Shown: positions 53,863 to 64,000 of the stretch, in pieces
Numbering within the stretch: the stretch's first letter is position 1
Layout: each line of letters opens with the position of its first letter
DNA from: Myxococcales bacterium
Lineage (GTDB): Bacteria; Myxococcota_A; Polyangia; Palsa-1104; JAEUJZ01
Direction of reading: 5' to 3'
Assembly (NCBI GenBank): GCA_016794365.1
Contig: JAEUKB010000060.1
Span: 30,613-94,612, forward strand
Length of the DNA: 64,000 nucleotides
Notes under the pieces: model-generated
The model's database searches: none
Seen by the model: the letters and a program-made list of their open reading frames with translations, nothing else
What the model was told of the DNA's origin: nothing
Program-made: the position numbers and the translations under genes

Positions 53863-55920
53863 ATGCAAGAAAGTCCGTCTTCTCTGCCTGCTTCTGGCAG
53901 GTCCCCGACGGGAAATCCTTCGAGTCGCTCACTCGGTGGTGCCCCGTCTCCCAGCACGTCTGGTTCCTTTCAACCCCAAGCCCACGCGCCCAGCCACGGT
54001 CCCAAGATCGAAAACACCCGTGACCTGATCAAGGTGTCGCTGGCTGCACTCGGAGTGGTCTACGGAGACATCGGTACGTCGCCGCTCTACGCATTCAAGG
54101 AATGTTTCTCTGGCGAGCACGGCGTTCCCGTCGATAACGCCAACGTGTTTGGCATCCTGTCGCTGATCTTCTGGTCACTGACGCTGGTGGTGGTCTTTAA
54201 GTACATGACCTACATCATGCGGGCCGATAACCACGGCGAAGGAGGCATCCTGTCGCTGCTCGCCGTGCTGGCACCGCGTGGCAACGTCGATAAGCGAGCC
54301 GTCGGTCGGCTGTCGCTGGTGATGCTGGGTCTGTTCGGGGCCGCGCTGCTATATGGCGACGGAATCATCACGCCGGTGATCTCGGTGTATTCGGCGGTGG
54401 AAGGCGTTCAGGTCTACGCACCGACGCTGGGTCACGGATCCTGGGCTGTTTCTACCGCGAGCCTGGTTCCGCCGCTGACCGCATCGATCTTGGTGGTCCT
54501 GTTTTTTATGCAAAAGCGTGGCACTGCGGGTGTCGGTGCGCTGTTTGGCCCGGTGATGCTGGTCTGGTTCATCAGCATTGCGCTGTTTGGCATCATCGGA
54601 ATCTTCAAAAATCCGTACATCCTGTCGGCGGTGAATCCGGTTCACGCGATTCGCTTTTTCGCGCACCACAAGCTGCATGGCTTTTTGGCGCTGGGCGCTG
54701 TGGTGCTGTGTGTAACCGGAGGTGAGGCCCTGTACGCCGATATGGGACACTTCGGTCAGCGCTCGATTCGGCTGGCGTGGTACTCGCTTGTGTTTCCGGC
54801 GCTGCTGCTCAACTACTTCGGTCAGGGCGCGTATCTGCTGGCGCACGGCAAAGGCAGCGGCATGTTCAATCCGTTCTTCCAGATCGTGCCGTCGATTTTG
54901 CGCGCACCGATGGTGTTGGTTGCGACGATGGCAACGATTGTGGCGTCGCAAGCACTCATCTCGGGTGGGTTTTCGTTGACGCGGCAGGCGGTGCAGCTTG
55001 GCTACTGGCCGCGTGTCGCAATCGTTCACACCTCGGGCGATGCAGAAGGTCAGATTTACGTGCCCGAGATCAACTGGGCGATGATGGTTGGCTGTCTGGC
55101 GCTGGTGCTCGCGTTCCGCAAAGAAGGCTCTGGCGGACTGGCGGCGGCATACGGCATCGCGGTGACGGGCACGATGGCGATTACCTCGATCCTGTTTGGT
55201 GTCGTCGCACACGAGCGCTGGGGTTGGAGCTGGTTCAAGATCAGCGGCCTGGTGGGACTGTTTCTGCTGATTGATCTATCGTTCTTCGGAGCAAACGTCG
55301 CCAAGATTGCCGACGGTGGCTGGATTCCTCTCGTCGTCGCGGTCGGCATCTTCATCATCATGACGACGTGGAAAGCTGGGCGCGCTGCGCTGGAACAGTT
55401 CGTCCAGAGCGCGAGCCTGCCGATGGATCTGTTCCTGGGTGACCTACAAGAGCGAGGCATGCCGCGCGTCAAGGGCACCGCCGTGTTTATGACCGGCAAT
55501 CCCGAAGGTGCGCCTGTCGTGCTGCTCCATCACATCAAGCACAACAAAGCGCTGCACGAGCAGGTTGTGCTGCTGTCGGTGCTGACCGATCGCGTGCCAG
55601 AGGTTCCTCCGTCGCGTCGCGTCAGCGTCAAAGAGCTGGGCCAAGGCTTCTTCCAGGTGATTGCTCACTACGGCTTTATGCAGAGCCCGAATGTGCCCGA
55701 CGTGATCCGTCGCTGCAAAGACGCGGGCCTGAAGACCGCCGAAGGGGACATCAGCTACTTCCTCGGTCGAGAGACGCTGCTCACGACGGGAAAGAGCGGG
55801 CTCGCGCGCTGGCGCAAGACGCTGTTTGGCTATCTGTCGCGCAATGCACGGACCGCGACGTCGTTCTTCGGGATTCCGCCGAACCGCGTGGTGGAAATGG
55901 GCGCGCAGATCGAGCTGTAA
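53863..55920 (+). CDS. kup: KUP/HAK/KT potassium uptake transporter
   Basis: 'LAALGVVYGDIGTSPLYAF' family signature. 12 TM. C-terminal cytoplasmic domain. The Ser/Pro-rich ~50-aa N-extension may not be translated. Confidence 0.9.
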   Translation: MQESPSSLPASGRSPTGNPSSRSLGGAPSPSTSGSFQPQAHAPSHGPKIENTRDLIKVSLAALGVVYGDIGTSPLYAFKECFSGEHGVPVDNANVFGILSLIFWSLTLVVVFKYMTYIMRADNHGEGGILSLLAVLAPRGNVDKRAVGRLSLVMLGLFGAALLYGDGIITPVISVYSAVEGVQVYAPTLGHGSWAVSTASLVPPLTASILVVLFFMQKRGTAGVGALFGPVMLVWFISIALFGIIGIFKNPYILSAVNPVHAIRFFAHHKLHGFLALGAVVLCVTGGEALYADMGHFGQRSIRLAWYSLVFPALLLNYFGQGAYLLAHGKGSGMFNPFFQIVPSILRAPMVLVATMATIVASQALISGGFSLTRQAVQLGYWPRVAIVHTSGDAEGQIYVPEINWAMMVGCLALVLAFRKEGSGGLAAAYGIAVTGTMAITSILFGVVAHERWGWSWFKISGLVGLFLLIDLSFFGANVAKIADGGWIPLVVAVGIFIIMTTWKAGRAALEQFVQSASLPMDLFLGDLQERGMPRVKGTAVFMTGNPEGAPVVLLHHIKHNKALHEQVVLLSVLTDRVPEVPPSRRVSVKELGQGFFQVIAHYGFMQSPNVPDVIRRCKDAGLKTAEGDISYFLGRETLLTTGKSGLARWRKTLFGYLSRNARTATSFFGIPPNRVVEMGAQIEL

Positions 55921-55959
55921 AAAAGGACGCGCTTCACGCAGTAGCGCTTGATTCGGCTG

Positions 55960-56832
55960 TTACAGACGGGGAATTCCCAGCGAGAGCGGTGCCGCGCTGT
56001 GCGTCTTGCCCAGCAGTCCGCGCAGCATCAGCGTCAGCAGCGTGAGAACGTACGGGACGGACTGCAAGATCCAGTTGGGAATCAGCAGTCCGCGTGCTTG
56101 GAGAAAGATTCCGGAGGCTTCTGCCGTCGCAAACAGCAGCGCAGCAGCGGCTCCCCACAGCGGTCGCCAGCCTCCGAAGATCATCGCGGCCAAGGCCAGA
56201 AAGCCACGTCCGCCCGACATCAGGGCCACAAACTGTCGCTGCTCGAAGACCAAGTACACGCCACCGATGGCCGTCAGCAGTCCAGATAGCGCAACGGCCC
56301 ACATTCGCACGCTGAGCACCGACACCGACAGCGCTTGCGCTGCCGCTGGCTTGTCACCGACCGCGCGCAGCCGCAGTCCCAGCACCGAGTGATAGATCAA
56401 TCCGTGTAGCAGAATCACCGACGAAAACGTCACGGCCAGAAGCCACAGCGGACCGCTTCCTACCAGCGCATCCAGCCGAGGCGAGTTCGATGTCGAGCCA
56501 AACTGTACCTTCAGCAGCACGCGCGAAAGCCCATCGGCCAGCATGAAGATCGCGACGCCACAGACGATCTGATCGCCGCGAAAGACGACGACCAGCAAGC
56601 CGTAGAGCAGCGCTGTGATGACACCGGCTGCCAGCCCACACACAAGCGCCAGCGCTGCGCCATGCGGTGCGCCCAGTGCCGTTCCGAGCGCCGCAATCAG
56701 CAAGATGCCTTCCAGCGCGATGTTGATGACGCCTGCGCGCTCACAGACCGTGCCTCCCAGCGCCGCCATCACATAGGGCACCGAGATGCGCAGGATCGCC
56801 CACAGAAGCCCCACAAGAGCCAATGAGTCCAC
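55960..56832 (-). CDS. ABC transporter permease (BPD_transp_2; nucleoside/simple-sugar type, YufQ/NupQ-like)
   Basis: 290 aa, ~8 TM. 'GVINIALEGILLIAALGTA' conserved region of this permease family. Confidence 0.8.
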   Translation of the reverse strand: MDSLALVGLLWAILRISVPYVMAALGGTVCERAGVINIALEGILLIAALGTALGAPHGAALALVCGLAAGVITALLYGLLVVVFRGDQIVCGVAIFMLADGLSRVLLKVQFGSTSNSPRLDALVGSGPLWLLAVTFSSVILLHGLIYHSVLGLRLRAVGDKPAAAQALSVSVLSVRMWAVALSGLLTAIGGVYLVFEQRQFVALMSGGRGFLALAAMIFGGWRPLWGAAAALLFATAEASGIFLQARGLLIPNWILQSVPYVLTLLTLMLRGLLGKTHSAAPLSLGIPRL

Positions 56833-56835
56833 GTT

Positions 56836-58035
56836 CTACCTCGCTGCCCACGGAGAGACAGAGTCCACGGTTTCCGGCACTTGCATCGGCGGCGGCTCGT
56901 GGCTGTGCGCATCGTCAGATTCTCGACTGGTCTGCTTTGGTGGACGCACGTCCTTGTTTCCATCGTCCGTCTTCGCCTGCTGAAAGCGGGGCAGCAAGCG
57001 GCGCACTTCCGCCGAAGCGGTTGCGACGGCCAGGATCACCACCGCGCTGAGCACGTCGATGAGCTCTCGGGGAACCATCGCGTTTACGGCCAGCCCGCCT
57101 TGCGCCAGCGTTCCGAAGAACAGCGCCGACAAGATGACCCACAGCGGCTGGTTATGCGCCAGCACCGCGACGGCAATGCCCAGATAGCCGACACCCGCCG
57201 AAAAGCCGTCCTCGTAGTAGTACTTGTAGCCCAGGACGAAGTTGGCCCCGCCGAGTCCCGCCAGCCCACCCGACAGCGTCAGTGCCAGCGTCTGAATCCA
57301 GCCGATGCGCAGACCCGTTGCCGCTGCCGCGTCGGGATTTTGACCCACCACGCGCAGCGCAAAGCCCAGTCGGGTCCGACGAAGCAGAAGCTCGATGGCC
57401 ACAGCCAGCAGCAGGGCCAGCACAAGCGCTGCATTGACCGCTGAGCCATGAAGCTGGGGAAGGATCGTCGCCAGCCGAGGCAGCTTGGCCGAATCAATGA
57501 CCGGCGCGGTATGTACCGATTCTTTTAGGAACAGATACCCACCGACGCCGATCATGACCGCTCGGACGATGAAGTTTAGCAAGATGGTGACGATGACCTC
57601 GTGGGCTCGACACAGCCACTTGCACAGCCCGACGAACGCACCGACCAGACCGCCCGCGCAGAACGCCGCAAGCAGGCACAGCGGAACCGCTACCACAGAT
57701 GGAACAGCGACGGGAAGATAGGCACCACACAGGGCCGCTGCGAGCGCTCCGACGATGAGCTGACCTTCCGCTCCGACGTTGAACAGCCCAGCCCGCAGCG
57801 CGACCGCCACCGCCAGCCCGGTACAGATGAGCGGTGTGGTCTTAAACAGAACCTGTCCGATGCCGTAGACACTGCCCCACGTCCCAGCGAGCAGCAGCCG
57901 ATACATGGCGAGCGGGCTCTGACCATACAGCCTAGCCAGCAGCGACGCCATGGCCATGGCCAGGAGCGCCGCCCAGACAAACGGCAGCGCCCGTAGCCAC
58001 AGCGGACCCCGAGAAAGCTCGTGTGAGCCCGCCAT
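56836..58035 (-). CDS. ABC transporter permease (BPD_transp_2; YufP/NupP-like) with hydrophilic C-terminal tail
   Basis: 399 aa. 'GLFNVGAEGQLIVGALAAAL'. Multiple TM. About 60-aa charged C-terminal tail. 3-bp gap to the downstream permease. Confidence 0.8.
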   Translation of the reverse strand: MAGSHELSRGPLWLRALPFVWAALLAMAMASLLARLYGQSPLAMYRLLLAGTWGSVYGIGQVLFKTTPLICTGLAVAVALRAGLFNVGAEGQLIVGALAAALCGAYLPVAVPSVVAVPLCLLAAFCAGGLVGAFVGLCKWLCRAHEVIVTILLNFIVRAVMIGVGGYLFLKESVHTAPVIDSAKLPRLATILPQLHGSAVNAALVLALLLAVAIELLLRRTRLGFALRVVGQNPDAAAATGLRIGWIQTLALTLSGGLAGLGGANFVLGYKYYYEDGFSAGVGYLGIAVAVLAHNQPLWVILSALFFGTLAQGGLAVNAMVPRELIDVLSAVVILAVATASAEVRRLLPRFQQAKTDDGNKDVRPPKQTSRESDDAHSHEPPPMQVPETVDSVSPWAAR

Positions 58036-58041
58036 GTGCGT

Positions 58042-61000
58042 CTACAGCGTCCCCGCCTTGCGTCGGCGCATCACCAGCAGCAGCAGCGTCAGCACCGACA
58101 GCTGCGCAAGCGGTCCGCCGGTCGAGCTGTGGCCCATCGTGCAGCCACTCGCTTCTTCCATCGGCATCGGACGATTGATGCCGTCGCCTTCTGCGCTGAC
58201 CTGCGCCAGGCTGACCGCCGTGCCCTTCATGCGGATGTCGATCAGCTCGGACTTGCTGCCCGTCGCTTTCGGTGCGAACACCACCGGAACCTTGGTCGCT
58301 TCACTTGGACCGAGCGACAGCTTGACCTGCGACAGATCCACCAGCCACTCGTCGCCCGGCGGCACAATCACGTCCAGCTCCAGCGGCGTCGTTCCATCGT
58401 TGGCAATCGTGATCGACAGCGGGTTTGACTGATCGCCGACGAAGACCGGACGGAAGCGCAGCGTCGTCGGAGAAACCGTCAGCAGCGCTGACATCGACGA
58501 GCCCTTGATCTGCACCGTCATCGGAACCTGCACGCCGTCTGCTTCCACCACCGCAACCGCCTTGATTTCCGCCTTGGCGACGCGCGGATCGAAGGTGATG
58601 CCGATCTCACTGCTCTCGCCGGGAAGGATCTTGGTCTTGTATCCCGTCACGACGGTGAAGTCCGCAGCGCCCTCGCCCGACAGCTTGACCGACAGGTTGT
58701 CGATGACCACCGAGCCGACGTTGGTCACCTTCACGACCTTCATCTCGCTCTTTTGTCCGACGTAAATCGGCGTGTTGAACTCCAGCACGACCGGATCGAC
58801 GGTGACGTTGGGCACCACGCCGTTTACCGACAGCGGCAGCGAGAACTTGGTTCCTCCCGCGACCGCTGGATCGTCGGTGGTGATGTCCAGCTTTGCCGTC
58901 GCGACACCGACCATCGCTGGAATGCAGTTCACCGTGAAGGTTGCGCTGCCGCCTGCTGCAATCTTGGTTCCGTCTGCTGGCGCATTCACCGAAAACACGC
59001 TCACCATCGGAGAGATCGCGCTCTTGAGGATCGTCAGCTCCTTGTTTCCGTTGTTGGTCAGCTTCACCACCTTCGACACCGTCTGCTTGACCTTGGCATC
59101 ACCGAAGTCCACCTTGGCTACATCGAGCTGACCGACGGCACCATTGGCTTCAGCCTTGAGCGCTACCGTCGCAGAGCCCGACGTTAGCAGATCCGTTACG
59201 ATGCGCAGCGTCGCAGCCAGTGCTCCCGCCGACTTCGGTGACACCAGCACCTGCGCGTTGACCTTCGTTCCGGCGCGCAGCACAAACGGCGTAGCTTCCA
59301 GCGTCGAGACCACGAACGAGTCCGCGCCCATTCCCGAAGCAATCGCCACTTCTTTGACCAGCAAGTCCCCGTCGCCATCGTTGCTTAGCTCGACCTGCTT
59401 TGGGGCGGACATCGATCCGATGTTGACCGAGCCAAAGTCGAGCGAGGTGACGTTCACCTTGAACTTCGGCTCCGTCGCGGTTCCTGCCAGATCGATGGTC
59501 TTGTCCGAGCCCGGCGGTCCCGGCGGCTCGTTGCTCGACAGCGTCAGCTTGCCCGTGCGCAGCCCGTTGACCGTCGGAGAAAACACAATCTGGAACGTCT
59601 TGGTCTGCTGCGCTTGTACCACGAGCGGGCTCATCGCCGTCGGCGCGTTCGGTACCGAAAAGTCGGTGCTGTCCGTCACAATCGACGGCACGCTCAGGTC
59701 TGAATAGCCTTCGTTGGTCAGGTTGATGGTGATCGGAATGCCCTTGCTTCCCGTCGGAACATCCGGCATCAGCACCGAGGTATACGGCAGCTTGGCTTTC
59801 GGCGGACCGGCCAGCGCGCGCACCGGAATCTGAAGCGGACTGCTCGCATCCGTCGAAAGCACCGTAATGCTCGTCGAGAGATCTCCGGTATCCATGCCCG
59901 GCGTGAACTTGACCTCGAAGCTGTACGTCGCCCCCGCGAACATCGTGATCTTGGCGTCGGGACGCGAGGTCTTCAGCTCGTAGTGCGTCGTATCTCCGAT
60001 GGTCGGCTTTTCCAGCTCAATCGGCGACGTGCCTGCGTTTTTCAGTCGCACCGTCACCGGACCCGCCGTCGAGCCTGATGGATTGCCACCAAAATCGATC
60101 GGCGACAGCGAGATCCACAGGTTGCCTTTGCTGGTTCCTTCCAGCACCGATTCGACGCGAGGCAGACCGCTCAGCGTCATAAACAGCGTCGCGCGATGTG
60201 CGCCTTGGACTTGCGGCTTGAACGCCACTTGCACCGACAGCGACGAGCCAATTGGGAGCGTGACAGGTGCCGCCGAGCTGGGCTCGTAGTCGCTGCGATA
60301 GACAAACTGGGCCTTGCCCGAGCCGTCGATGCCGATACTGGTCACATCGATCGGTGCGTCGGAGATGTTGCGGAACGTGATCGTCGTCCAGGCGCTCGCT
60401 CCGCCGAGGCCGGTGCTCGGGAAGACAGGCTTGCGCGGGCTCTGGAGCATTGGTGCCGACAGATACAGGATGGCGTTGGTGATCAGCTCTCCGCCGGTGC
60501 CGCCCCACGAGCCGGTGATCGCGCCTTCATCGCCCGGAAGCATGTTCAAGTCCACGCGCTTTTTGCCGCGCACCGCCAGCAGCGTTCCGTCCGCCCAGTA
60601 TGCGACGGCAGTGGCTCCGGCTCGCAGCGTGGTTCCAGTGACGCGCTGACAGTTGGAACCGCAGGAAAACTCCGTCACTCCTTCGACGAGCGGATCGCCA
60701 CTGAGCACCGTGCCACGCTTGGTTGCTGACGTAGCGTTGGTCGCGCTCTGCGACGTAAGTGCATAGTTTGCGAGGAATCGACCCGCAACGGCTGGCGCAC
60801 CAAACAAGCCGGTCTGCCAGGTGTTCGGCTGGAACATCAGCACCGACGCGCCCGGCACCATCGACATATAGTCCCCGAGCACGTTGCCTACGCCGTCGCC
60901 GCTCGACAGGCCGTAGTCGCTCGACAGCACCACCACCAGCTTGTAGTTTTGAAGCTGGGTCAGCGTCGGGTCACTAAACGCCGAGTCGATCTGATCGACC

Positions 61001-61179
61001 GACGTGTACAGCCCGGTCGCCATGATCTTTTGCTTTACATACTGCCACCAGGCGCTCTCGCTGGAGCGGGTGGCCGTGACGATGGCAGCCTTCTGCGCGC
61101 TTGCCGACTGGACGAAGCCACATATCGTCCACAGCGCCAGCAAAAGGCCGCACACACGCGCAAGTCGAGATCGAGACAT
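58042..61179 (-). CDS. Giant secreted cell-surface protein with repeated Ig-like ('choice-of-anchor D'-like) domains and a MYXO-CTERM-type C-terminal sorting signal
   Basis: Start 'MSRSRLARVCGLLLALWTICGFVQSASAQ' (ATG at 61179; the track start 61263 adds a non-signal extension). At least 8 repeats of '...DFG.V.(I)G......L.N.G...L.I...' ('LDFGSVNIGSMSAPKQVELSNDGDGDLLV', 'VDFGDAKVKQTVSKVVKLTNNGNKELTI', 'IDFGGNPSGSTAGPVTVRLKNAGTSPIEL'). C-terminus 'GCTMGHSSTGGPLAQLSVLTLLLLVMRRRKAGTL' is Cys, then a Gly/Ser spacer, a hydrophobic helix, then Arg-rich, i.e. the MYXO-CTERM pattern. 6-bp gap to the permease gene. Confidence 0.75.
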   Translation of the reverse strand: MSRSRLARVCGLLLALWTICGFVQSASAQKAAIVTATRSSESAWWQYVKQKIMATGLYTSVDQIDSAFSDPTLTQLQNYKLVVVLSSDYGLSSGDGVGNVLGDYMSMVPGASVLMFQPNTWQTGLFGAPAVAGRFLANYALTSQSATNATSATKRGTVLSGDPLVEGVTEFSCGSNCQRVTGTTLRAGATAVAYWADGTLLAVRGKKRVDLNMLPGDEGAITGSWGGTGGELITNAILYLSAPMLQSPRKPVFPSTGLGGASAWTTITFRNISDAPIDVTSIGIDGSGKAQFVYRSDYEPSSAAPVTLPIGSSLSVQVAFKPQVQGAHRATLFMTLSGLPRVESVLEGTSKGNLWISLSPIDFGGNPSGSTAGPVTVRLKNAGTSPIELEKPTIGDTTHYELKTSRPDAKITMFAGATYSFEVKFTPGMDTGDLSTSITVLSTDASSPLQIPVRALAGPPKAKLPYTSVLMPDVPTGSKGIPITINLTNEGYSDLSVPSIVTDSTDFSVPNAPTAMSPLVVQAQQTKTFQIVFSPTVNGLRTGKLTLSSNEPPGPPGSDKTIDLAGTATEPKFKVNVTSLDFGSVNIGSMSAPKQVELSNDGDGDLLVKEVAIASGMGADSFVVSTLEATPFVLRAGTKVNAQVLVSPKSAGALAATLRIVTDLLTSGSATVALKAEANGAVGQLDVAKVDFGDAKVKQTVSKVVKLTNNGNKELTILKSAISPMVSVFSVNAPADGTKIAAGGSATFTVNCIPAMVGVATAKLDITTDDPAVAGGTKFSLPLSVNGVVPNVTVDPVVLEFNTPIYVGQKSEMKVVKVTNVGSVVIDNLSVKLSGEGAADFTVVTGYKTKILPGESSEIGITFDPRVAKAEIKAVAVVEADGVQVPMTVQIKGSSMSALLTVSPTTLRFRPVFVGDQSNPLSITIANDGTTPLELDVIVPPGDEWLVDLSQVKLSLGPSEATKVPVVFAPKATGSKSELIDIRMKGTAVSLAQVSAEGDGINRPMPMEEASGCTMGHSSTGGPLAQLSVLTLLLLVMRRRKAGTL

Positions 61180-61283
61180 CGTTTGGACTCCTTGCATGGG
61201 TTCGCGGTCAACAAAGTGGGTAGGGAAGTCGGACACACCTACGCCTAGGTGGGGGTTTAGCACAGCTTGTACGGGGTCCGCCG

Positions 61284-62609
61284 CTAGAACGATAGCCGCG
61301 TCTGGATTCCGGTCTGAATCACGGTTCCTGCGACGGAAAAATCACCAACAGAAGAGCGTGGATCTGACTTGCGGAAGGTTCTCGTCGGCAGATAGGTCAG
61401 TCCGACATAGCCATCGAAGGCAATCGGACGTGGCAGCACCTTGGTCAGTCCCGCCAGCTCTGCGCCGAGCCCGATGCTGAAGATGTGCTTGTCGCTGTCG
61501 CCCAGGCTCGACTCGCCGTCTTGTTCGGGAATCGGTGATCCTTCGTAGCGATAGCCCGCGCGAGCATCGAGAGACAGCGGTCCGCATCCGTCGAGCGCGC
61601 GCCACTCAAGACCGACCGCAGGAATCAGCAGATCGCGAAATCCGACGGGCGGATAGTCTTTGGACTTGGGCAGCTTGACGAGATCGGTCAGCTGTCCAAT
61701 GTCGAGATCGAGCGTAAACACAGCGGCGGGCGGAGGCTGCTCTCGCCAGCGCGCGTAGGTCAAGTCGAAGCTGACCAGCAATCGCGAAAAGCGTGCCGCC
61801 GCTGCTGCGACGAGCTGCCACGGCTGAAACAGATCGACCGAGCGCGCCAGCTCTTTGAGACTGCCTTTTTCGACGACGGGACGCTGTCCAGGGTCGGCCA
61901 CCTGCGCATCGATTTGAAAGCCTTGTTCCAGATCGAGCGCAAAGCGATGTCGATACGTCAGCCCGAGCGTCAGGTTCGGCGTCGCTGCAAACAGCAGACC
62001 GACCTGCGGATAGCGAATCGCGAACAGATCTTGGCTGATCGAAGCGGTCAGCTCACTGCGCTCGGGGTCCGAGATGCCGATTCGTCCGCGCAGATAGACC
62101 GTTCCCGACGAGCGCGACATAAACGCGAGGCCGCCGCCCAGGTACAGACCGCGATAGATGTGAAACGCCAAGTTGGCCGCCAGATACAGACGCTGGGTTC
62201 GGTTGTCGTACATGTGCAGCCTCGGTTGATCGAAGCTGAGCACGCGAATCCTCGTCACATGCTGGTCGGGCAAAAACAGCGAGACTCCGAAGGCAAAGCG
62301 CGCCGGACCGATCGATCCAGGCAGCACCACTCCGGCGGTGAGCCCGCGCGTATCGAGGAGCCACTGACGCTGACCCGATACCTCGACGAGCGGACGCGCA
62401 AACTGATAGCCGACATCGATGCGCAGACCACTTGCCCGTGCGAGCCCGGCGGGGTTGTAGTAGTTGGCTGCACTGTCATCAGCGACGGCAGAATAGGCAG
62501 AGCCCATGGCTGCCGCGCGCGCACCGTATCCAAAGGCGTCGATGGGATTGGCGTGAGCCTGACCGCGAAGTGCCGCAGCGACGACAAGTGCCAAGATGAC
62601 ACGCTTCAT
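61284..62609 (-). CDS. Outer-membrane beta-barrel protein, FadL/TodX/OmpP1-like
   Basis: 'MKRVILALVVAAALRGQAHA' signal. 'AMGSAYSAVADDSAANYYNPAGLA' (N-terminal hatch motif with NPA). Alternating amphipathic beta-strand pattern. Ends '...RLSF' (C-terminal Phe). Confidence 0.55.
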   Translation of the reverse strand: MKRVILALVVAAALRGQAHANPIDAFGYGARAAAMGSAYSAVADDSAANYYNPAGLARASGLRIDVGYQFARPLVEVSGQRQWLLDTRGLTAGVVLPGSIGPARFAFGVSLFLPDQHVTRIRVLSFDQPRLHMYDNRTQRLYLAANLAFHIYRGLYLGGGLAFMSRSSGTVYLRGRIGISDPERSELTASISQDLFAIRYPQVGLLFAATPNLTLGLTYRHRFALDLEQGFQIDAQVADPGQRPVVEKGSLKELARSVDLFQPWQLVAAAAARFSRLLVSFDLTYARWREQPPPAAVFTLDLDIGQLTDLVKLPKSKDYPPVGFRDLLIPAVGLEWRALDGCGPLSLDARAGYRYEGSPIPEQDGESSLGDSDKHIFSIGLGAELAGLTKVLPRPIAFDGYVGLTYLPTRTFRKSDPRSSVGDFSVAGTVIQTGIQTRLSF

Positions 62610-63817
62610 AGTCGCACTCCCAGCGCTGCACCACCGACGAAAAGCTGACCATCCAAGCGACCACCGGGCGACAGCAAATGCGCCTGTCCAAACAGATCCA
62701 GATCGAGCGGAACTTTGCTGCGCAGGCTCAAGCCCAGACCGACGCTCAGGACATGACGGCTCTGGTCGAGCAGGCTCTTTCCATCGTCTGTTTGCTGCGT
62801 GCTTGGCGTCGGTGTCCAGTCGAAGAAATAGCCACCGCGCAGCTTGATCTGAACCAAGTCCGGCGTCGGCACTTGATATTCCAGCGAGACACGCGGCACC
62901 ACGGTGTCGTGAAAGCCCGGCTCAGGCAGCTTCGGGGAATCCGCCGTCGCTGGTTCAATCGGATAGCGATAGTCGCTCCAGTTCTTCCAGGCAAGCTGCG
63001 CGACAAGCTGTAGCGACGAAGAAATCCGGATCGCAGCCTCGGCCCCGAGCTGAAGCGGATCGTACTGCGCGATGCCTGCGAACGAAATCAGCGGCAGCCC
63101 GAGCGGAATGGCGTCGCCCAATTCGGTATGAAGCCGCAGCAGATACGACGAGCGCGACGCGCCTCGGAAGGTCAGCCCAAGCTGAATGCGCTCACTCGGT
63201 GGCGACCAGCGAATGCCCAAGATCGGGGCGTAATCGACCGTAAGCTGCTCTTCGGAGATGGTGGTAATGCGTCCCGTGCCGTCGGGTCGAATGAAGATGT
63301 CTCCGACGAGAGCCGCGAGCGCCAAGACGCCGCCACCGATGCGCAGTCCGAGAGGCAACCGAATGCCCATGCCGACGAGAACCGAGACAACTTCAGTGCG
63401 TGAGTCGAGGAGAACCGCGCGGGGAACCTCGGGATAGGGCACGCTCACGCGGTTGACGACCCCGGCGGGCAGGTATAGGCCAAGTCCGATGCCGATGCGG
63501 TCGCGCAGGATTCCACCGAGGGGAAGTGGGACGCTGGCACCGATCTGAACGCCGGCGGGGTTGCTCAGCGGATGGGGCTGGTCGTCGATACGAAGCCGAA
63601 AGCCGCCATAGATGAAGCCGAGCGAGAGCTTTTTTTGCGACGACGACAGGCCCGCTGGATTTTGATAGGTCGCTTCCCAGTCGTCGGCCATCGCAATGCC
63701 AGTACCCGCCATCGCTGCGGAGCGCGGACCGAGAGAGAGCAGATCCGGCAGCGATGCCAGCGCAGCACTCGGAACGAGCGTCGTCAGTCCCAGCAGCAGT
63801 CGGGCGGCGCGCGTCAT
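62606..63817 (-). CDS. Outer-membrane beta-barrel protein, FadL/TodX-like paralog
   Basis: 'LLLGLTTLVPSAALA' signal. 'AMAGTGIAMADDWEATYQNPAGLS', the same motif as the neighbouring gene. Its stop overlaps that gene's start by 4 bp. Its own ATG overlaps the dtd stop. Confidence 0.5.
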   Translation of the reverse strand: MTRAARLLLGLTTLVPSAALASLPDLLSLGPRSAAMAGTGIAMADDWEATYQNPAGLSSSQKKLSLGFIYGGFRLRIDDQPHPLSNPAGVQIGASVPLPLGGILRDRIGIGLGLYLPAGVVNRVSVPYPEVPRAVLLDSRTEVVSVLVGMGIRLPLGLRIGGGVLALAALVGDIFIRPDGTGRITTISEEQLTVDYAPILGIRWSPPSERIQLGLTFRGASRSSYLLRLHTELGDAIPLGLPLISFAGIAQYDPLQLGAEAAIRISSSLQLVAQLAWKNWSDYRYPIEPATADSPKLPEPGFHDTVVPRVSLEYQVPTPDLVQIKLRGGYFFDWTPTPSTQQTDDGKSLLDQSRHVLSVGLGLSLRSKVPLDLDLFGQAHLLSPGGRLDGQLFVGGAALGVRL

Positions 63818-64000
63818 GAGGCACTCGTCGGTGGGCTGGCGGTGTCAAACCAGATGGTGACGGGACCGTCGTTGCAGATGTCCACATCCATCATGGCACC
63901 AAAGCGACCTGTCTCGACGACAAAGCCCGCGTTTTTGCAGCCTGCGATGAAGCGCTCATACAGGGCGGTGGCGTCGCTGGGCTGCATTGCGCGAAGGAAC
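63814..64000 (-). CDS. dtd: D-aminoacyl-tRNA deacylase, C-terminal 61 codons (N-terminus beyond window end)
   Basis: My own minus-strand translation: '...FLRAMQPSDATALYERFIAGCKNAGFVVETGRFGAMMDVDICNDGPVTIWFDTASPPTSAS*'. E. coli Dtd ends '...EALYDYFVERCRQQ...[24 protein letters not shown]'. Not in the ORF track because it is truncated at the window edge. Its TGA overlaps the ATG of 62606-63817 (tcATGa). Confidence 0.85.
   Translation of the reverse strand, partial: FLRAMQPSDATALYERFIAGCKNAGFVVETGRFGAMMDVDICNDGPVTIWFDTASPPTSAS

What the first reader, a model, noticed from the sequence alone, without database searches (positions are those of the whole stretch)
55960..64000. Six-gene overlapping operon: dtd, two FadL-like OM barrels, a MYXO-CTERM giant surface protein, and two ABC permeases with no ATPase or binding protein
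Every junction on the minus strand is tight. The dtd stop overlaps the first barrel's ATG. The two barrel genes overlap by 4 bp. A ~100-bp gap precedes the giant protein, then a 6-bp gap, then a 3-bp gap between the two permeases. Such spacing suggests translational coupling. The combination is not a textbook system: FadL-family outer-membrane channels (hydrophobic-substrate uptake), a ~1045-aa multi-Ig surface protein tethered by a MYXO-CTERM signal, and two BPD_transp_2 inner-membrane permeases of the nucleoside/sugar type. The permeases sit where one would expect a substrate-binding lipoprotein and an ABC ATPase. Either the giant protein, whose N-terminal ~250 aa are not Ig-like, stands in for the binding component, or the ATPase is encoded elsewhere. 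This looks like an envelope-spanning uptake or surface-presentation module and I do not recognise it as a described system.
Basis: partly seen in the sequence, partly recalled or inferred. Interest (0 to 1): 0.78.

Follow-up and report, generated by a model that had tools for sequence, protein, structure and literature searches.

The report
Surface-protein operon with orphan ABC permeases
An uncultured myxobacterium carries a real, tightly packed six-gene cluster built from familiar parts, and its one unsolved puzzle is a conserved pair of ABC-transporter membrane subunits, sitting directly behind a giant surface protein, with no ATPase or binding-protein gene anywhere nearby.

Summary
All six minus-strand genes, their spacings (4-nt overlap, 4-nt overlap, 104 nt, 6 nt, 3 nt) and their family assignments were reproduced. 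A longer copy of the contig shows that dtd is the first gene. No ABC ATPase or Bmp binding protein lies within 9.5 kb upstream or 56 kb downstream.

The six-gene order recurs in at least five species-representative genomes and in metagenome and assembly contigs of one Polyangia lineage. All six genes are under purifying selection.

The cluster is a composite:
- Relatives carry giant–permease–permease without dtd or the barrels.
- Others carry the permease pair alone.
- Others carry the giant alone. In one genome the giant and the pair lie 320 kb apart.
- More distant relatives have the textbook Bmp–ATPase–permease–permease operon.

The giant's N-terminal domain is a non-catalytic glutamine-amidotransferase-like (ThuA-like) fold, not a binding-protein fold.

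Most likely reading: a co-transcribed, lineage-specific operon of three independent modules. Its permeases are a monophyletic "orphan" branch of Bmp-type importers, served by an ATPase and binding protein encoded elsewhere. I could not locate those partners. A real functional link between giant and permeases therefore stays open but is the less likely reading. Interest is moderate to low.

The parts
63814..64000 (-). 3' end of dtd (D-aminoacyl-tRNA deacylase), the first gene of the cluster. The gene runs off the window; it is 164 aa in locus L001.
   Evidence: PF02580 at 58 bits and TIGR00256 on the 61 aa present. Full gene and divergent upstream neighbours are in L001. Its TGA overlaps the barrel-1 ATG.
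62606..63817 (-). Barrel 1: 403-aa outer-membrane protein of the FadL/TodX/OmpP1 superfamily, with a signal peptide and a PorV-like N-terminal motif.
   Evidence: Toluene_X 30.4 bits (cutoff 29.7). PorV_fam scores 30 bits on the N-terminal motif only, below its cutoff of 90. It is 26-28% identical to barrel 2 over about 380 aa. dN/dS is 0.12-0.2.
61284..62609 (-). Barrel 2: 441-aa FadL/TodX/OmpP1-family outer-membrane protein ending in Phe. It overlaps barrel 1 by 4 nt.
   Evidence: Toluene_X 58.9 bits covering residues 24-382. The FadL equivalog model scores only 20 bits against a cutoff of 585. dN/dS is 0.07-0.13.
61248..61268 (-). Conserved 21-nt motif AAGCTGTGCTAAACCCCCACC inside the 104-nt spacer between barrel 2 and the giant. 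Candidate internal promoter or operator.
   Evidence: A 13-nt core of the motif is present in 13 of the 36 held loci, all carrying the six-gene order, including the 70% lineage. It is absent upstream of the giants in L008, L036 and L015. No Rfam match and no convincing fold.
58042..61179 (-). Giant: 1045-aa secreted surface protein. It has a signal peptide (aa 1-28), a GATase1/ThuA-like head (aa ~29-245), about 7 choice-of-anchor-D Ig-like domains, and a MYXO-CTERM-type tail.
   Evidence: choice_anch_D 212.8 bits in 7 stretches, plus HYDIN/ASH Ig hits. An AAGGAG site precedes the ATG at 61179. Gene callers give 1045 aa. Full-length orthologues of 1022-1063 aa exist.
60445..61095 (-). N-terminal head domain of the giant: a class I glutamine-amidotransferase-like (ThuA/GIFT-like) fold with no catalytic triad.
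58045..58149 (-). MYXO-CTERM-type sorting tail: SGC, a spacer, the hydrophobic helix LAQLSVLTLLLLVM, then RRRK.
   Evidence: TIGR03901 scores 18.2 bits, E 0.0024, against a cutoff of 20. The tripartite layout matches the published definition (PMC11980579). The GC…RRR(K/R) pattern is kept in all orthologues.
56836..58035 (-). Permease A: 399-aa BPD_transp_2 membrane subunit of a Bmp-type ABC importer, with a low-complexity cytoplasmic C-terminal tail of about 55 aa. It starts 6 nt after the giant's stop.
   Evidence: PF02653 134 bits. 59-62% identical to permeases of canonical Bmp-ATPase-permease-permease operons. 120 of 183 positions conserved in canonical relatives are kept. dN/dS is 0.12-0.2.
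55960..56832 (-). Permease B: 290-aa BPD_transp_2 membrane subunit with a GTG start 3 nt after the permease A stop.
   Evidence: PF02653 100 bits. 50-54% identical to the canonical second permeases. dN/dS is 0.08-0.16.
55928..55940 (-). Terminator-like hairpin plus T-run after permease B, facing the convergent Kup gene (53863-55920, + strand).
   Evidence: pattern match only. The Kup identity comes from the PF02705 annotation in L001.

Best explanation
This is a lineage-specific, probably co-transcribed operon of an uncultured Polyangia (Myxococcota) bacterium. It strings together three modules that evolve independently.

1. **dtd plus two barrels.** A housekeeping dtd gene is followed by two paralogous FadL/TodX/PorV-like outer-membrane barrels.
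2. **The giant.** A Sec-exported protein carries a C-terminal MYXO-CTERM-type tail, which should lead to lipidation, cleavage by myxosortase and display on the cell surface via the type II secretion system. It presents a non-catalytic GATase1/ThuA-like head on a stalk of about seven Ig-like domains. It is most likely an adhesin or ligand-binding protein.
3. **The permease pair.** This is the heterodimeric membrane part of a Bmp-type (nucleoside or simple-sugar class) ABC importer.

The permeases belong to a monophyletic 'orphan' branch. That branch separated from its bmp (binding protein) and tandem-NBD ATPase genes in an ancestor of this group. The permeases are intact and constrained, so they most likely work with an ATPase and a binding protein encoded elsewhere in the genome. 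Those partners could be a relocated bmp-ATPase pair or the subunits of a paralogous complete system.

Shown: gene content, spacing, conservation, selection, the fold of the head domain, separability of the modules, and the canonical operon in relatives.

Inferred: co-transcription, surface display, and supply of ATPase and binding protein in trans.
For: Gene families and junctions.

No ATPase or Bmp in the window or upstream.

Six-gene order:
- It is conserved in L006, L007/L018, L009, L010, L012, L014, L026, L028, L031 and L032.
- The giant-permease A gap stays at 3-6 nt.

Modules separate in relatives:
- L008 and L036 carry giant-permease-permease without dtd or barrels.
- L003 and L035 carry the permease pair without the giant.
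- L015 carries the giant alone, on the same 855-kb contig as L003 and 320 kb away. L016 and L017 also carry the giant alone.

Canonical Bmp-ATPase-permease-permease operons occur in more distant Polyangia: L005, L022, L024 and L025.

The orphan branch:
- It is monophyletic with 100% bootstrap.
- All six genes have dN/dS of 0.07-0.2 in unsaturated comparisons.
- The orphan permease A keeps 120 of 183 canonical conserved positions, including the GFALRxVGxNxxAA loop. Only 9 differences are fixed, and most are conservative.

The head domain has a GATase1/ThuA-like fold without a triad and is not Bmp-like.

Literature:
- The MYXO-CTERM pathway is described in PMC11980579.
- ABC importers that borrow an ATPase in trans are documented: P5PAB with AfuC and the MsiK systems cited there (PMC8427247), and MsmK (PMC4519317, abstract seen).
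Against: - The trans-acting ATPase and binding protein were not found. Every Polyangia ATPase homologue whose context I could fetch (3 of 3) sat in a complete canonical operon. I could not show that such an operon co-exists with the orphan pair in one genome.
- The giant-permease A junction is held at 3-6 nt in lineages whose giants are only about 60% identical and whose flanks differ. That is more than a neutral juxtaposition would predict.
- The orphan branch sits on a long branch (distance about 0.6, against about 0.3 within groups) and has gained a C-terminal tail. Both are compatible with a changed function.
Confidence: 0.6

Rival explanations
1. The giant and the two permeases form one functional system. 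Either the giant acts as an accessory or substrate-capturing component of an importer energised in trans, or the permease pair serves the biogenesis of the giant. Before cleavage the giant is anchored in the inner membrane by its C-terminal helix, or it may stay there. A loose analogue is the GATase1/GIFT-like protein GldG, which accompanies the GldA/GldF ABC transporter (my recollection of the literature, not tested here).
For: - The giant-permease A spacing is 3-6 nt in the lineage carrying the six-gene order and 4 nt in L008, despite about 60% identity of the giants and different flanking genes.
- The giant occupies exactly the position held by Bmp+ATPase in canonical operons.
- The orphan permease branch is monophyletic, divergent and has a new C-terminal tail.
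Against: - The giant and the pair are 320 kb apart in STL-MYX5 (L003/L015). The pair lacks the giant in L035. Giants of 53% identity stand alone.
- L036 has a 184-nt gap.
- MYXO-CTERM proteins are expected to end up on the cell surface, out of reach of inner-membrane permeases (PMC11980579).
- The head is neither a binding-protein fold nor a match to PF09822.
- The head-domain family (831 clusters) occurs in many unrelated architectures.
Confidence: 0.25
2. The permease pair is a functionless remnant of a broken Bmp-type operon and is merely carried along behind the giant gene.
For: - No cis ATPase or binding protein appears in any of five contexts.
- One copy sits next to a reverse-transcriptase gene.
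Against: - The ORFs are intact in more than 15 independent sequences.
- dN/dS is 0.08-0.2 at dS of 0.4-1.3.
- Two thirds of the canonical conserved positions are retained, including the conserved cytoplasmic loop.
Confidence: 0.03
3. All six genes make one envelope-spanning uptake route: FadL-like channels in the outer membrane, surface capture by the giant, and permeases in the inner membrane.
For: - Six co-directional genes have overlapping or near-overlapping junctions. The order is conserved in one lineage, including a member with different flanks.
Against: - dtd and the barrels are absent from the giant-permease loci L008 and L036.
- dtd is a housekeeping gene.
- The 104-nt spacer carries its own conserved motif, which suggests a separate control point.
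- FadL-type channels pass hydrophobic compounds, whereas Bmp-type importers take nucleosides or sugars (established knowledge of both families).
- No binding protein or ATPase is present.
Confidence: 0.1

Closest known systems
Bmp/PnrA-type (CUT2-like, BPD_transp_2) ABC importers with the operon bmp - tandem-NBD ATPase - permease - permease
   Same: Both permeases are clear homologues. They are 50-62% identical to the permeases of canonical Polyangia operons (L005, L022, L024, L025), lie in the same order (long permease, then short permease) and keep the conserved cytoplasmic loop.
   Different: No bmp and no ATPase gene is adjacent in any member of this branch. Permease A has an extra C-terminal tail. 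In three lineages a 1045-aa surface-protein gene sits where bmp and the ATPase would be.
ABC importers that use an ATPase encoded elsewhere (Streptomyces MsiK systems, Streptococcus MsmK, Actinobacillus P5PAB with AfuC)
   Same: The operon lacks an ATPase gene although the membrane subunits are intact. Supply in trans is the documented solution (PMC8427247, PMC4519317).
   Different: Those systems keep their own binding protein in the operon and belong to the BPD_transp_1 class. Here the binding protein is missing too, and no donor system has been identified.
MYXO-CTERM surface proteins sorted by myxosortase MrtX and the type II secretion system (prototype TraA)
   Same: It has an N-terminal signal peptide and a C-terminal Gly-Cys signature, hydrophobic helix and Arg-rich end. 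It comes from a Myxococcota genome and has the architecture of a large multi-domain adhesin.
   Different: The tail scores just below the TIGR03901 cutoff. The head domain is unrelated to TraA's PA14-like domain (my recollection of the TraA literature, not tested here). No MrtX or T2SS gene could be examined.
FadL/TodX/OmpP1 outer-membrane channels and the related PorV/PorQ barrels
   Same: Both barrels pass the Pfam family threshold and share the N-terminal G-x-R-x-x-A-M-G-G-A…NPAG-type motif seen in PorV-like proteins.
   Different: They are far below every equivalog cutoff (FadL, AupA, PorV). Their substrate is unknown. They form a paralogous pair translationally coupled to dtd.
GATase1-like / ThuA-like / GIFT domains (PDB 3rht, 2gk3, 1t0b; IFT52, OST48; GldG of the GldAFG transporter)
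   Different: No sequence model recognises it (no hit in Pfam or NCBIfam, and so none to PF09822). It is extracellular and sits on an Ig-domain stalk. The adjacent permeases are BPD_transp_2, not the ABC-2 type that accompanies GldG.

Membership tests
Bmp-type ABC importer (BPD_transp_2 permeases) | Two membrane subunits matching PF02653 above the gathering score | tested here: met
   134 and 100 bits against a cutoff of 26.8.
Bmp-type ABC importer (BPD_transp_2 permeases) | Cognate tandem-NBD ATPase encoded in the operon | tested here: not met
   No ABC signature or ATPase homologue in the 64-kb window or 9.5 kb upstream. None is adjacent in L003, L008, L035 or L036.
Bmp-type ABC importer (BPD_transp_2 permeases) | Bmp-family (PF02608) binding protein encoded in the operon | tested here: not met
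   No Bmp homologue in the window or in any orphan-type locus. It is present in the canonical relatives L005, L022, L024 and L025.
Bmp-type ABC importer (BPD_transp_2 permeases) | Conserved core residues and cytoplasmic loop of the family retained, under purifying selection | tested here: met
   120 of 183 conserved columns are identical and the loop GFALRxVGxNxxAA is kept. dN/dS is 0.08-0.2.
Bmp-type ABC importer (BPD_transp_2 permeases) | ATP-driven uptake of a nucleoside or sugar-like substrate | not testable with these tools
   Needs transport assays. The best NCBIfam equivalogs (ABC_B6_perm_1 and _2) score about 120 bits against cutoffs of 400-465, so no substrate can be assigned.
MYXO-CTERM sorted surface protein | N-terminal Sec signal peptide | tested here: met
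   The sequence MSRSRLARVCGLLLALWTICGFVQSASA|QK was read directly. No predictor tool was available.
MYXO-CTERM sorted surface protein | Tripartite tail: signature with invariant Cys, transmembrane helix, Arg-rich end | tested here: met
   The tail reads SGC…LAQLSVLTLLLLVM RRRK. The pattern is conserved in 8 orthologues, with invariant G1012 and C1013. The definition is taken from PMC11980579.
MYXO-CTERM sorted surface protein | TIGR03901 HMM at or above its curated cutoff | tested here: inconclusive
   18.2 bits, E 0.0024, against a cutoff of 20.
MYXO-CTERM sorted surface protein | Myxosortase (MrtX) and a T2SS in the same genome; surface localisation | not testable with these tools
FadL/TodX/OmpP1 outer-membrane transport proteins | PF03349 at or above the gathering score | tested here: met
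   Barrel 2 scores 58.9 bits. Barrel 1 scores 30.4 bits (cutoff 29.7), a borderline and partial match.
FadL/TodX/OmpP1 outer-membrane transport proteins | 14-stranded barrel with N-terminal hatch and lateral opening | not tested
FadL/TodX/OmpP1 outer-membrane transport proteins | Equivalog-level identity to FadL, AupA or PorV | tested here: not met
   FadL 20 bits (cutoff 585), AupA 21 bits (840), PorV_fam 30-31 bits (90).
   The model is a single-lobe GATase1-like fold. hhalign against a Bmp alignment gives 0.75% probability.
Class I glutamine amidotransferase-like superfamily | Flavodoxin-like alpha/beta fold of GATase1 | tested here: met
Class I glutamine amidotransferase-like superfamily | Catalytic Cys-His-Glu triad | tested here: not met
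   The invariant columns of 21 family members are G, G, G, W and N. No conserved Cys, His or Glu appears.
GldG / ABC_transp_aux (GIFT) accessory proteins of ABC transporters | Match to PF09822 and association with an ABC-2 permease plus ATPase | tested here: not met

The most novel reading that the evidence does not exclude
The orphan permease pair and the giant are a new kind of two-part system. The giant has a GATase1/GIFT-like head, an Ig stalk and a C-terminal membrane anchor before myxosortase cleavage. It would replace the soluble binding protein or act as an accessory subunit of a Bmp-derived transporter. Alternatively, the permease pair would have been recruited for biogenesis or turnover of this particular MYXO-CTERM protein. 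Either way the ATPase would be supplied in trans or be absent.
Probability: 0.12. Interest if true: 0.7.

Novelty: new variant of a known kind. Interest (0 to 1): 0.35.

Why it matters
If the ordinary reading holds, the locus is a tidy example of operon remodelling. An ABC importer was split from its ATPase and binding protein, yet stayed under selection and was re-wired behind a surface-protein gene. That is useful mainly as a warning for annotation and for operon-based function prediction in Myxococcota MAGs.

If the giant and the permeases really work together, this would be a previously undescribed partnership between a sorted surface protein and ABC membrane subunits.

A by-product is independent of both readings. 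The giant's head domain defines a large family (about 830 clusters at 50% identity) of extracellular GATase1-like domains with no Pfam or NCBIfam model.

Tried and rejected
- **Single-sequence AlphaFold of the head domain** gave a useless model (pLDDT 37.5). It was repeated with a 21-sequence alignment.
- **Word-indexed homologue search with the head domain** returned only 4 fragments. The exhaustive representative search was needed.
- **Profile search of the head domain against PDB sequences** found nothing meaningful.
- **Hunt for the missing ATPase.**
  - I searched with the ATPase of a canonical relative and fetched three contexts, P0334, P0304 and P0308. All were complete canonical operons.
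  - I matched contig lengths by eye between the two hit lists. ATPase hits share contig lengths only with permease hits of 64% identity or less to the window. This fits the idea that the whole orphan branch lacks a cis ATPase, but it is indirect.
  - I tried to tie ATPase or canonical-permease hits to orphan-clade genomes through NCBI accession blocks. This was uninformative.
- **Synteny test.** I asked whether the window carries the valS-isochorismatase neighbourhood that flanks canonical operons. It does not.
- **Metagenome scan with barrel 2** recovered only close relatives with the same six-gene order. It says nothing about barrels in distant lineages.
- **Genes near the stand-alone giants** in L015, L016 and L017 include no transporter partner. 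A single-NBD ATPase 5 kb upstream in L016 and L019 is separated from the giant by unrelated genes.
- **Spacer RNA.** There is no Rfam hit, and the consensus fold is weak (-7.3 kcal/mol) with no clear covariation.
- **The sigma-70 promoter scan** found nothing. Terminator-like hits inside genes occur at the shuffle rate.
- **The afdb50 fold library** was unavailable.

Full report
**1. What is in the sequence**

The minus strand of window 55960-64000 carries six co-directional genes:
- the 3' end of dtd (63814-64000);
- barrel 1 (62606-63817, 403 aa);
- barrel 2 (61284-62609, 441 aa);
- a giant protein. Its ORF opens at 61263, but the gene starts at the ATG at 61179 behind an AAGGAG site, giving 1045 aa ending at 58042;
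- permease A (56836-58035, 399 aa);
- permease B (55960-56832, 290 aa, GTG start).

A hairpin plus T-run follows permease B (55928-55940) and faces a convergent Kup potassium-transporter gene.

Profile searches confirm every family call:
- dtd: PF02580 and TIGR00256.
- Barrels: Toluene_X at 58.9 bits for barrel 2 and a borderline 30.4 bits for barrel 1. The two barrels are 26-28% identical paralogues.
- Giant: seven choice-of-anchor-D / HYDIN-ASH Ig-like domains.
- Permeases: PF02653 for both.

The giant's tail (SGC, spacer, LAQLSVLTLLLLVM, RRRK) has the tripartite MYXO-CTERM layout described in PMC11980579. It scores 18.2 bits on TIGR03901, just under the cutoff of 20.

**2. Is the ATPase or binding protein just outside?**

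No.
- The six-frame translation of the whole 64-kb window holds no ABC signature motif.
- It gives no tblastn match to a Bmp protein or to the tandem-NBD ATPase of a related operon.
- An identical contig from a public assembly (L001) extends 9.5 kb beyond the window. There dtd is the first gene, preceded by divergently transcribed SLT, FHA and Ser/Thr-kinase genes.

**3. Conservation**

Homologues of permease A, a genome scan with the giant and a metagenome scan with barrel 2 gave 30-odd loci. I mapped them with tblastn.

The six-gene order dtd-barrel-barrel-giant-permease-permease occurs in:
- five species-representative genomes (L009, L010, L012, L014, L018);
- Logan/ENA assembly contigs (L002, L006, L007);
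- metagenome contigs (L026-L032).

Two further representatives on short contigs (L011, L013) show only giant-permease. Giant identity to the window runs from 94% down to 76%.

One lineage (L007/L018) has entirely different flanking genes. All six genes show dN/dS of 0.07-0.2 at dS of 0.3-1.3. The giant-permease A gap is 6 nt (3 nt in L007) throughout. The arrangement is therefore real, old and selected. Co-transcription is the natural inference, but it is not shown.

**4. The cluster is a composite**

More distant relatives take it apart:
- L008 and L036 (giant about 60% identical; permease A about 65%) have giant-permease-permease behind a divergent polyprenyl synthase gene, with no dtd or barrels. 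The gap is 4 nt in L008 and 184 nt in L036.
- In the Polyangia MAG STL-MYX5 the permease pair stands alone behind reverse-transcriptase and WGR genes (L003). The giant orthologue (62%) stands alone 320 kb away on the same contig (L015).
- In L035 the pair follows two TPR genes. These are orthologues of the TPR pair lying 3.4 kb upstream of dtd in the window's own lineage. The block kinase-FHA-SLT-dtd-barrels-giant therefore sits between the same two anchors in the window and is missing in L035.
- Giants of 53% identity (L016, L017) have no transporter gene beside them.

**5. Origin of the permeases**

Permeases 50-62% identical to the window's lie in textbook operons: Bmp binding protein, tandem-NBD ATPase, permease, permease. 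These sit next to valS and isochorismatase genes in other Polyangia (L005, L022, L024, L025).

In a neighbour-joining tree of concatenated permease A+B, all pairs that lack an adjacent Bmp and ATPase form one clade with 100% bootstrap. Relationships inside that clade are unresolved.

The orphan clade keeps 120 of the 183 positions that are at least 90% conserved in canonical permease A, including the loop GFALRxVGxNxxAA. It has only nine fixed substitutions, mostly conservative, and has gained a low-complexity C-terminal tail.

These are working ABC membrane subunits, not relics. Such subunits have no known way to act without a nucleotide-binding partner. The partner is therefore most probably encoded elsewhere, as in the MsiK and P5PAB/AfuC cases (PMC8427247) and the MsmK case (PMC4519317, abstract seen).

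I could not find it. Each of the three ATPase homologues whose context I could fetch belongs to a complete canonical operon.

**6. The giant's N-terminus**

The 215-residue head has no Pfam or NCBIfam match and no sequence relative in the PDB. It does have 831 clusters of relatives among 1.84 billion representatives. These have many architectures, some with three to seven copies and some with PEP-CTERM tails.

Foldseek agrees. The invariant residues of the family are three Gly, one Trp and one Asn. There is no Cys-His-Glu triad, so the domain is not an amidotransferase. A profile comparison with Bmp proteins gives 0.75% probability.

The idea that this domain replaces the periplasmic binding protein through a binding-protein fold is therefore rejected. 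A MYXO-CTERM protein is also expected to end up on the cell surface (PMC11980579), away from inner-membrane permeases.

**7. Interpretation**

The best-supported account is a lineage-specific operon of three independent modules: dtd plus two FadL/PorV-like barrels, a surface-displayed giant, and an orphan Bmp-type permease pair that depends on trans-encoded partners (confidence about 0.6).

The main rival is a true giant-permease system (about 0.25). In its favour:
- the 3-6-nt junction has survived about 40% protein divergence and changes of flanks;
- the giant occupies the slot of Bmp+ATPase;
- the orphan branch is long and has acquired a tail.

Against it:
- the two components separate in STL-MYX5, in L035 and in the more distant giants;
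- the giant's expected location is the cell surface.

A six-gene envelope-spanning route (about 0.1) is weakened in three ways. The barrels are absent from L008 and L036. dtd is a housekeeping gene. A conserved 21-nt motif in the 104-nt spacer hints at separate control of giant-permease-permease. A decaying remnant (about 0.03) is contradicted by the selection data.

**8. Novelty and score**

Every part belongs to a known kind. What is new is the orphan branch of Bmp-type permeases and its recurrent coupling to one family of MYXO-CTERM giants, so I file it as a new variant of a known kind.

A specialist would find it mildly surprising rather than startling. The organism is uncultured, and the ordinary explanation is both precedented and the most likely. 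Interest: 0.35.

The decisive missing computation is a whole-genome search of orphan-clade MAGs for Bmp and tandem-NBD ATPase genes.

Noticed in passing
window 61248-61268 (minus strand), inside the 104-nt spacer between barrel 2 and the giant: A 21-nt motif, AAGCTGTGCTAAACCCCCACC, is conserved across the lineage with the six-gene order, including its 70%-identity branch. It is absent upstream of the giant in L008, L036 and L015. It could be an internal promoter or operator. There is no Rfam hit and no convincing RNA fold.
   Followed up: partly
window 60445-61095 (minus strand); relatives P0125-P0272: The giant's head domain belongs to a large extracellular GATase1/ThuA-like family (831 clusters at 50% identity, shared 'LADYVDxGGGVV' motif). 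No Pfam or NCBIfam model covers it. It is often repeated 3-7 times in one protein, or combined with PEP-CTERM-like tails.
   Followed up: partly
window 56836-57000 (minus strand), the C-terminal ~55 aa of permease A: Orphan-type permease A proteins carry a low-complexity, charged cytoplasmic tail of 40-110 aa. Canonical relatives (about 342 aa) lack it.
   Followed up: partly
L035 6543-8899 versus L001 3718-6104: The two TPR genes directly upstream of the lone permease pair in L035 are orthologues (55% and 34%) of the TPR pair upstream of the window's cluster. An 11.7-kb block (kinase, FHA, SLT, dtd, barrels, giant) has therefore been inserted or deleted between the same two anchors.
   Followed up: yes
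L003 7433-9897: In the MAG STL-MYX5 the orphan permease pair lies directly downstream of a reverse-transcriptase (RVT_1) gene and a WGR-domain gene. This hints that a retroelement was involved in relocating it.
   Followed up: no
L006 2340-3647: One close relative has an extra HSP70/MreB-like gene inserted between the divergent SLT gene and dtd.
   Followed up: no
L022 4763-6895 and L023 411-2558: Next to a canonical Bmp operon lies a 710-715-aa gene that fuses a Peripla_BP_6 binding-protein domain to a BPD_transp_2 permease, in a Liv-type transporter operon.
   Followed up: no
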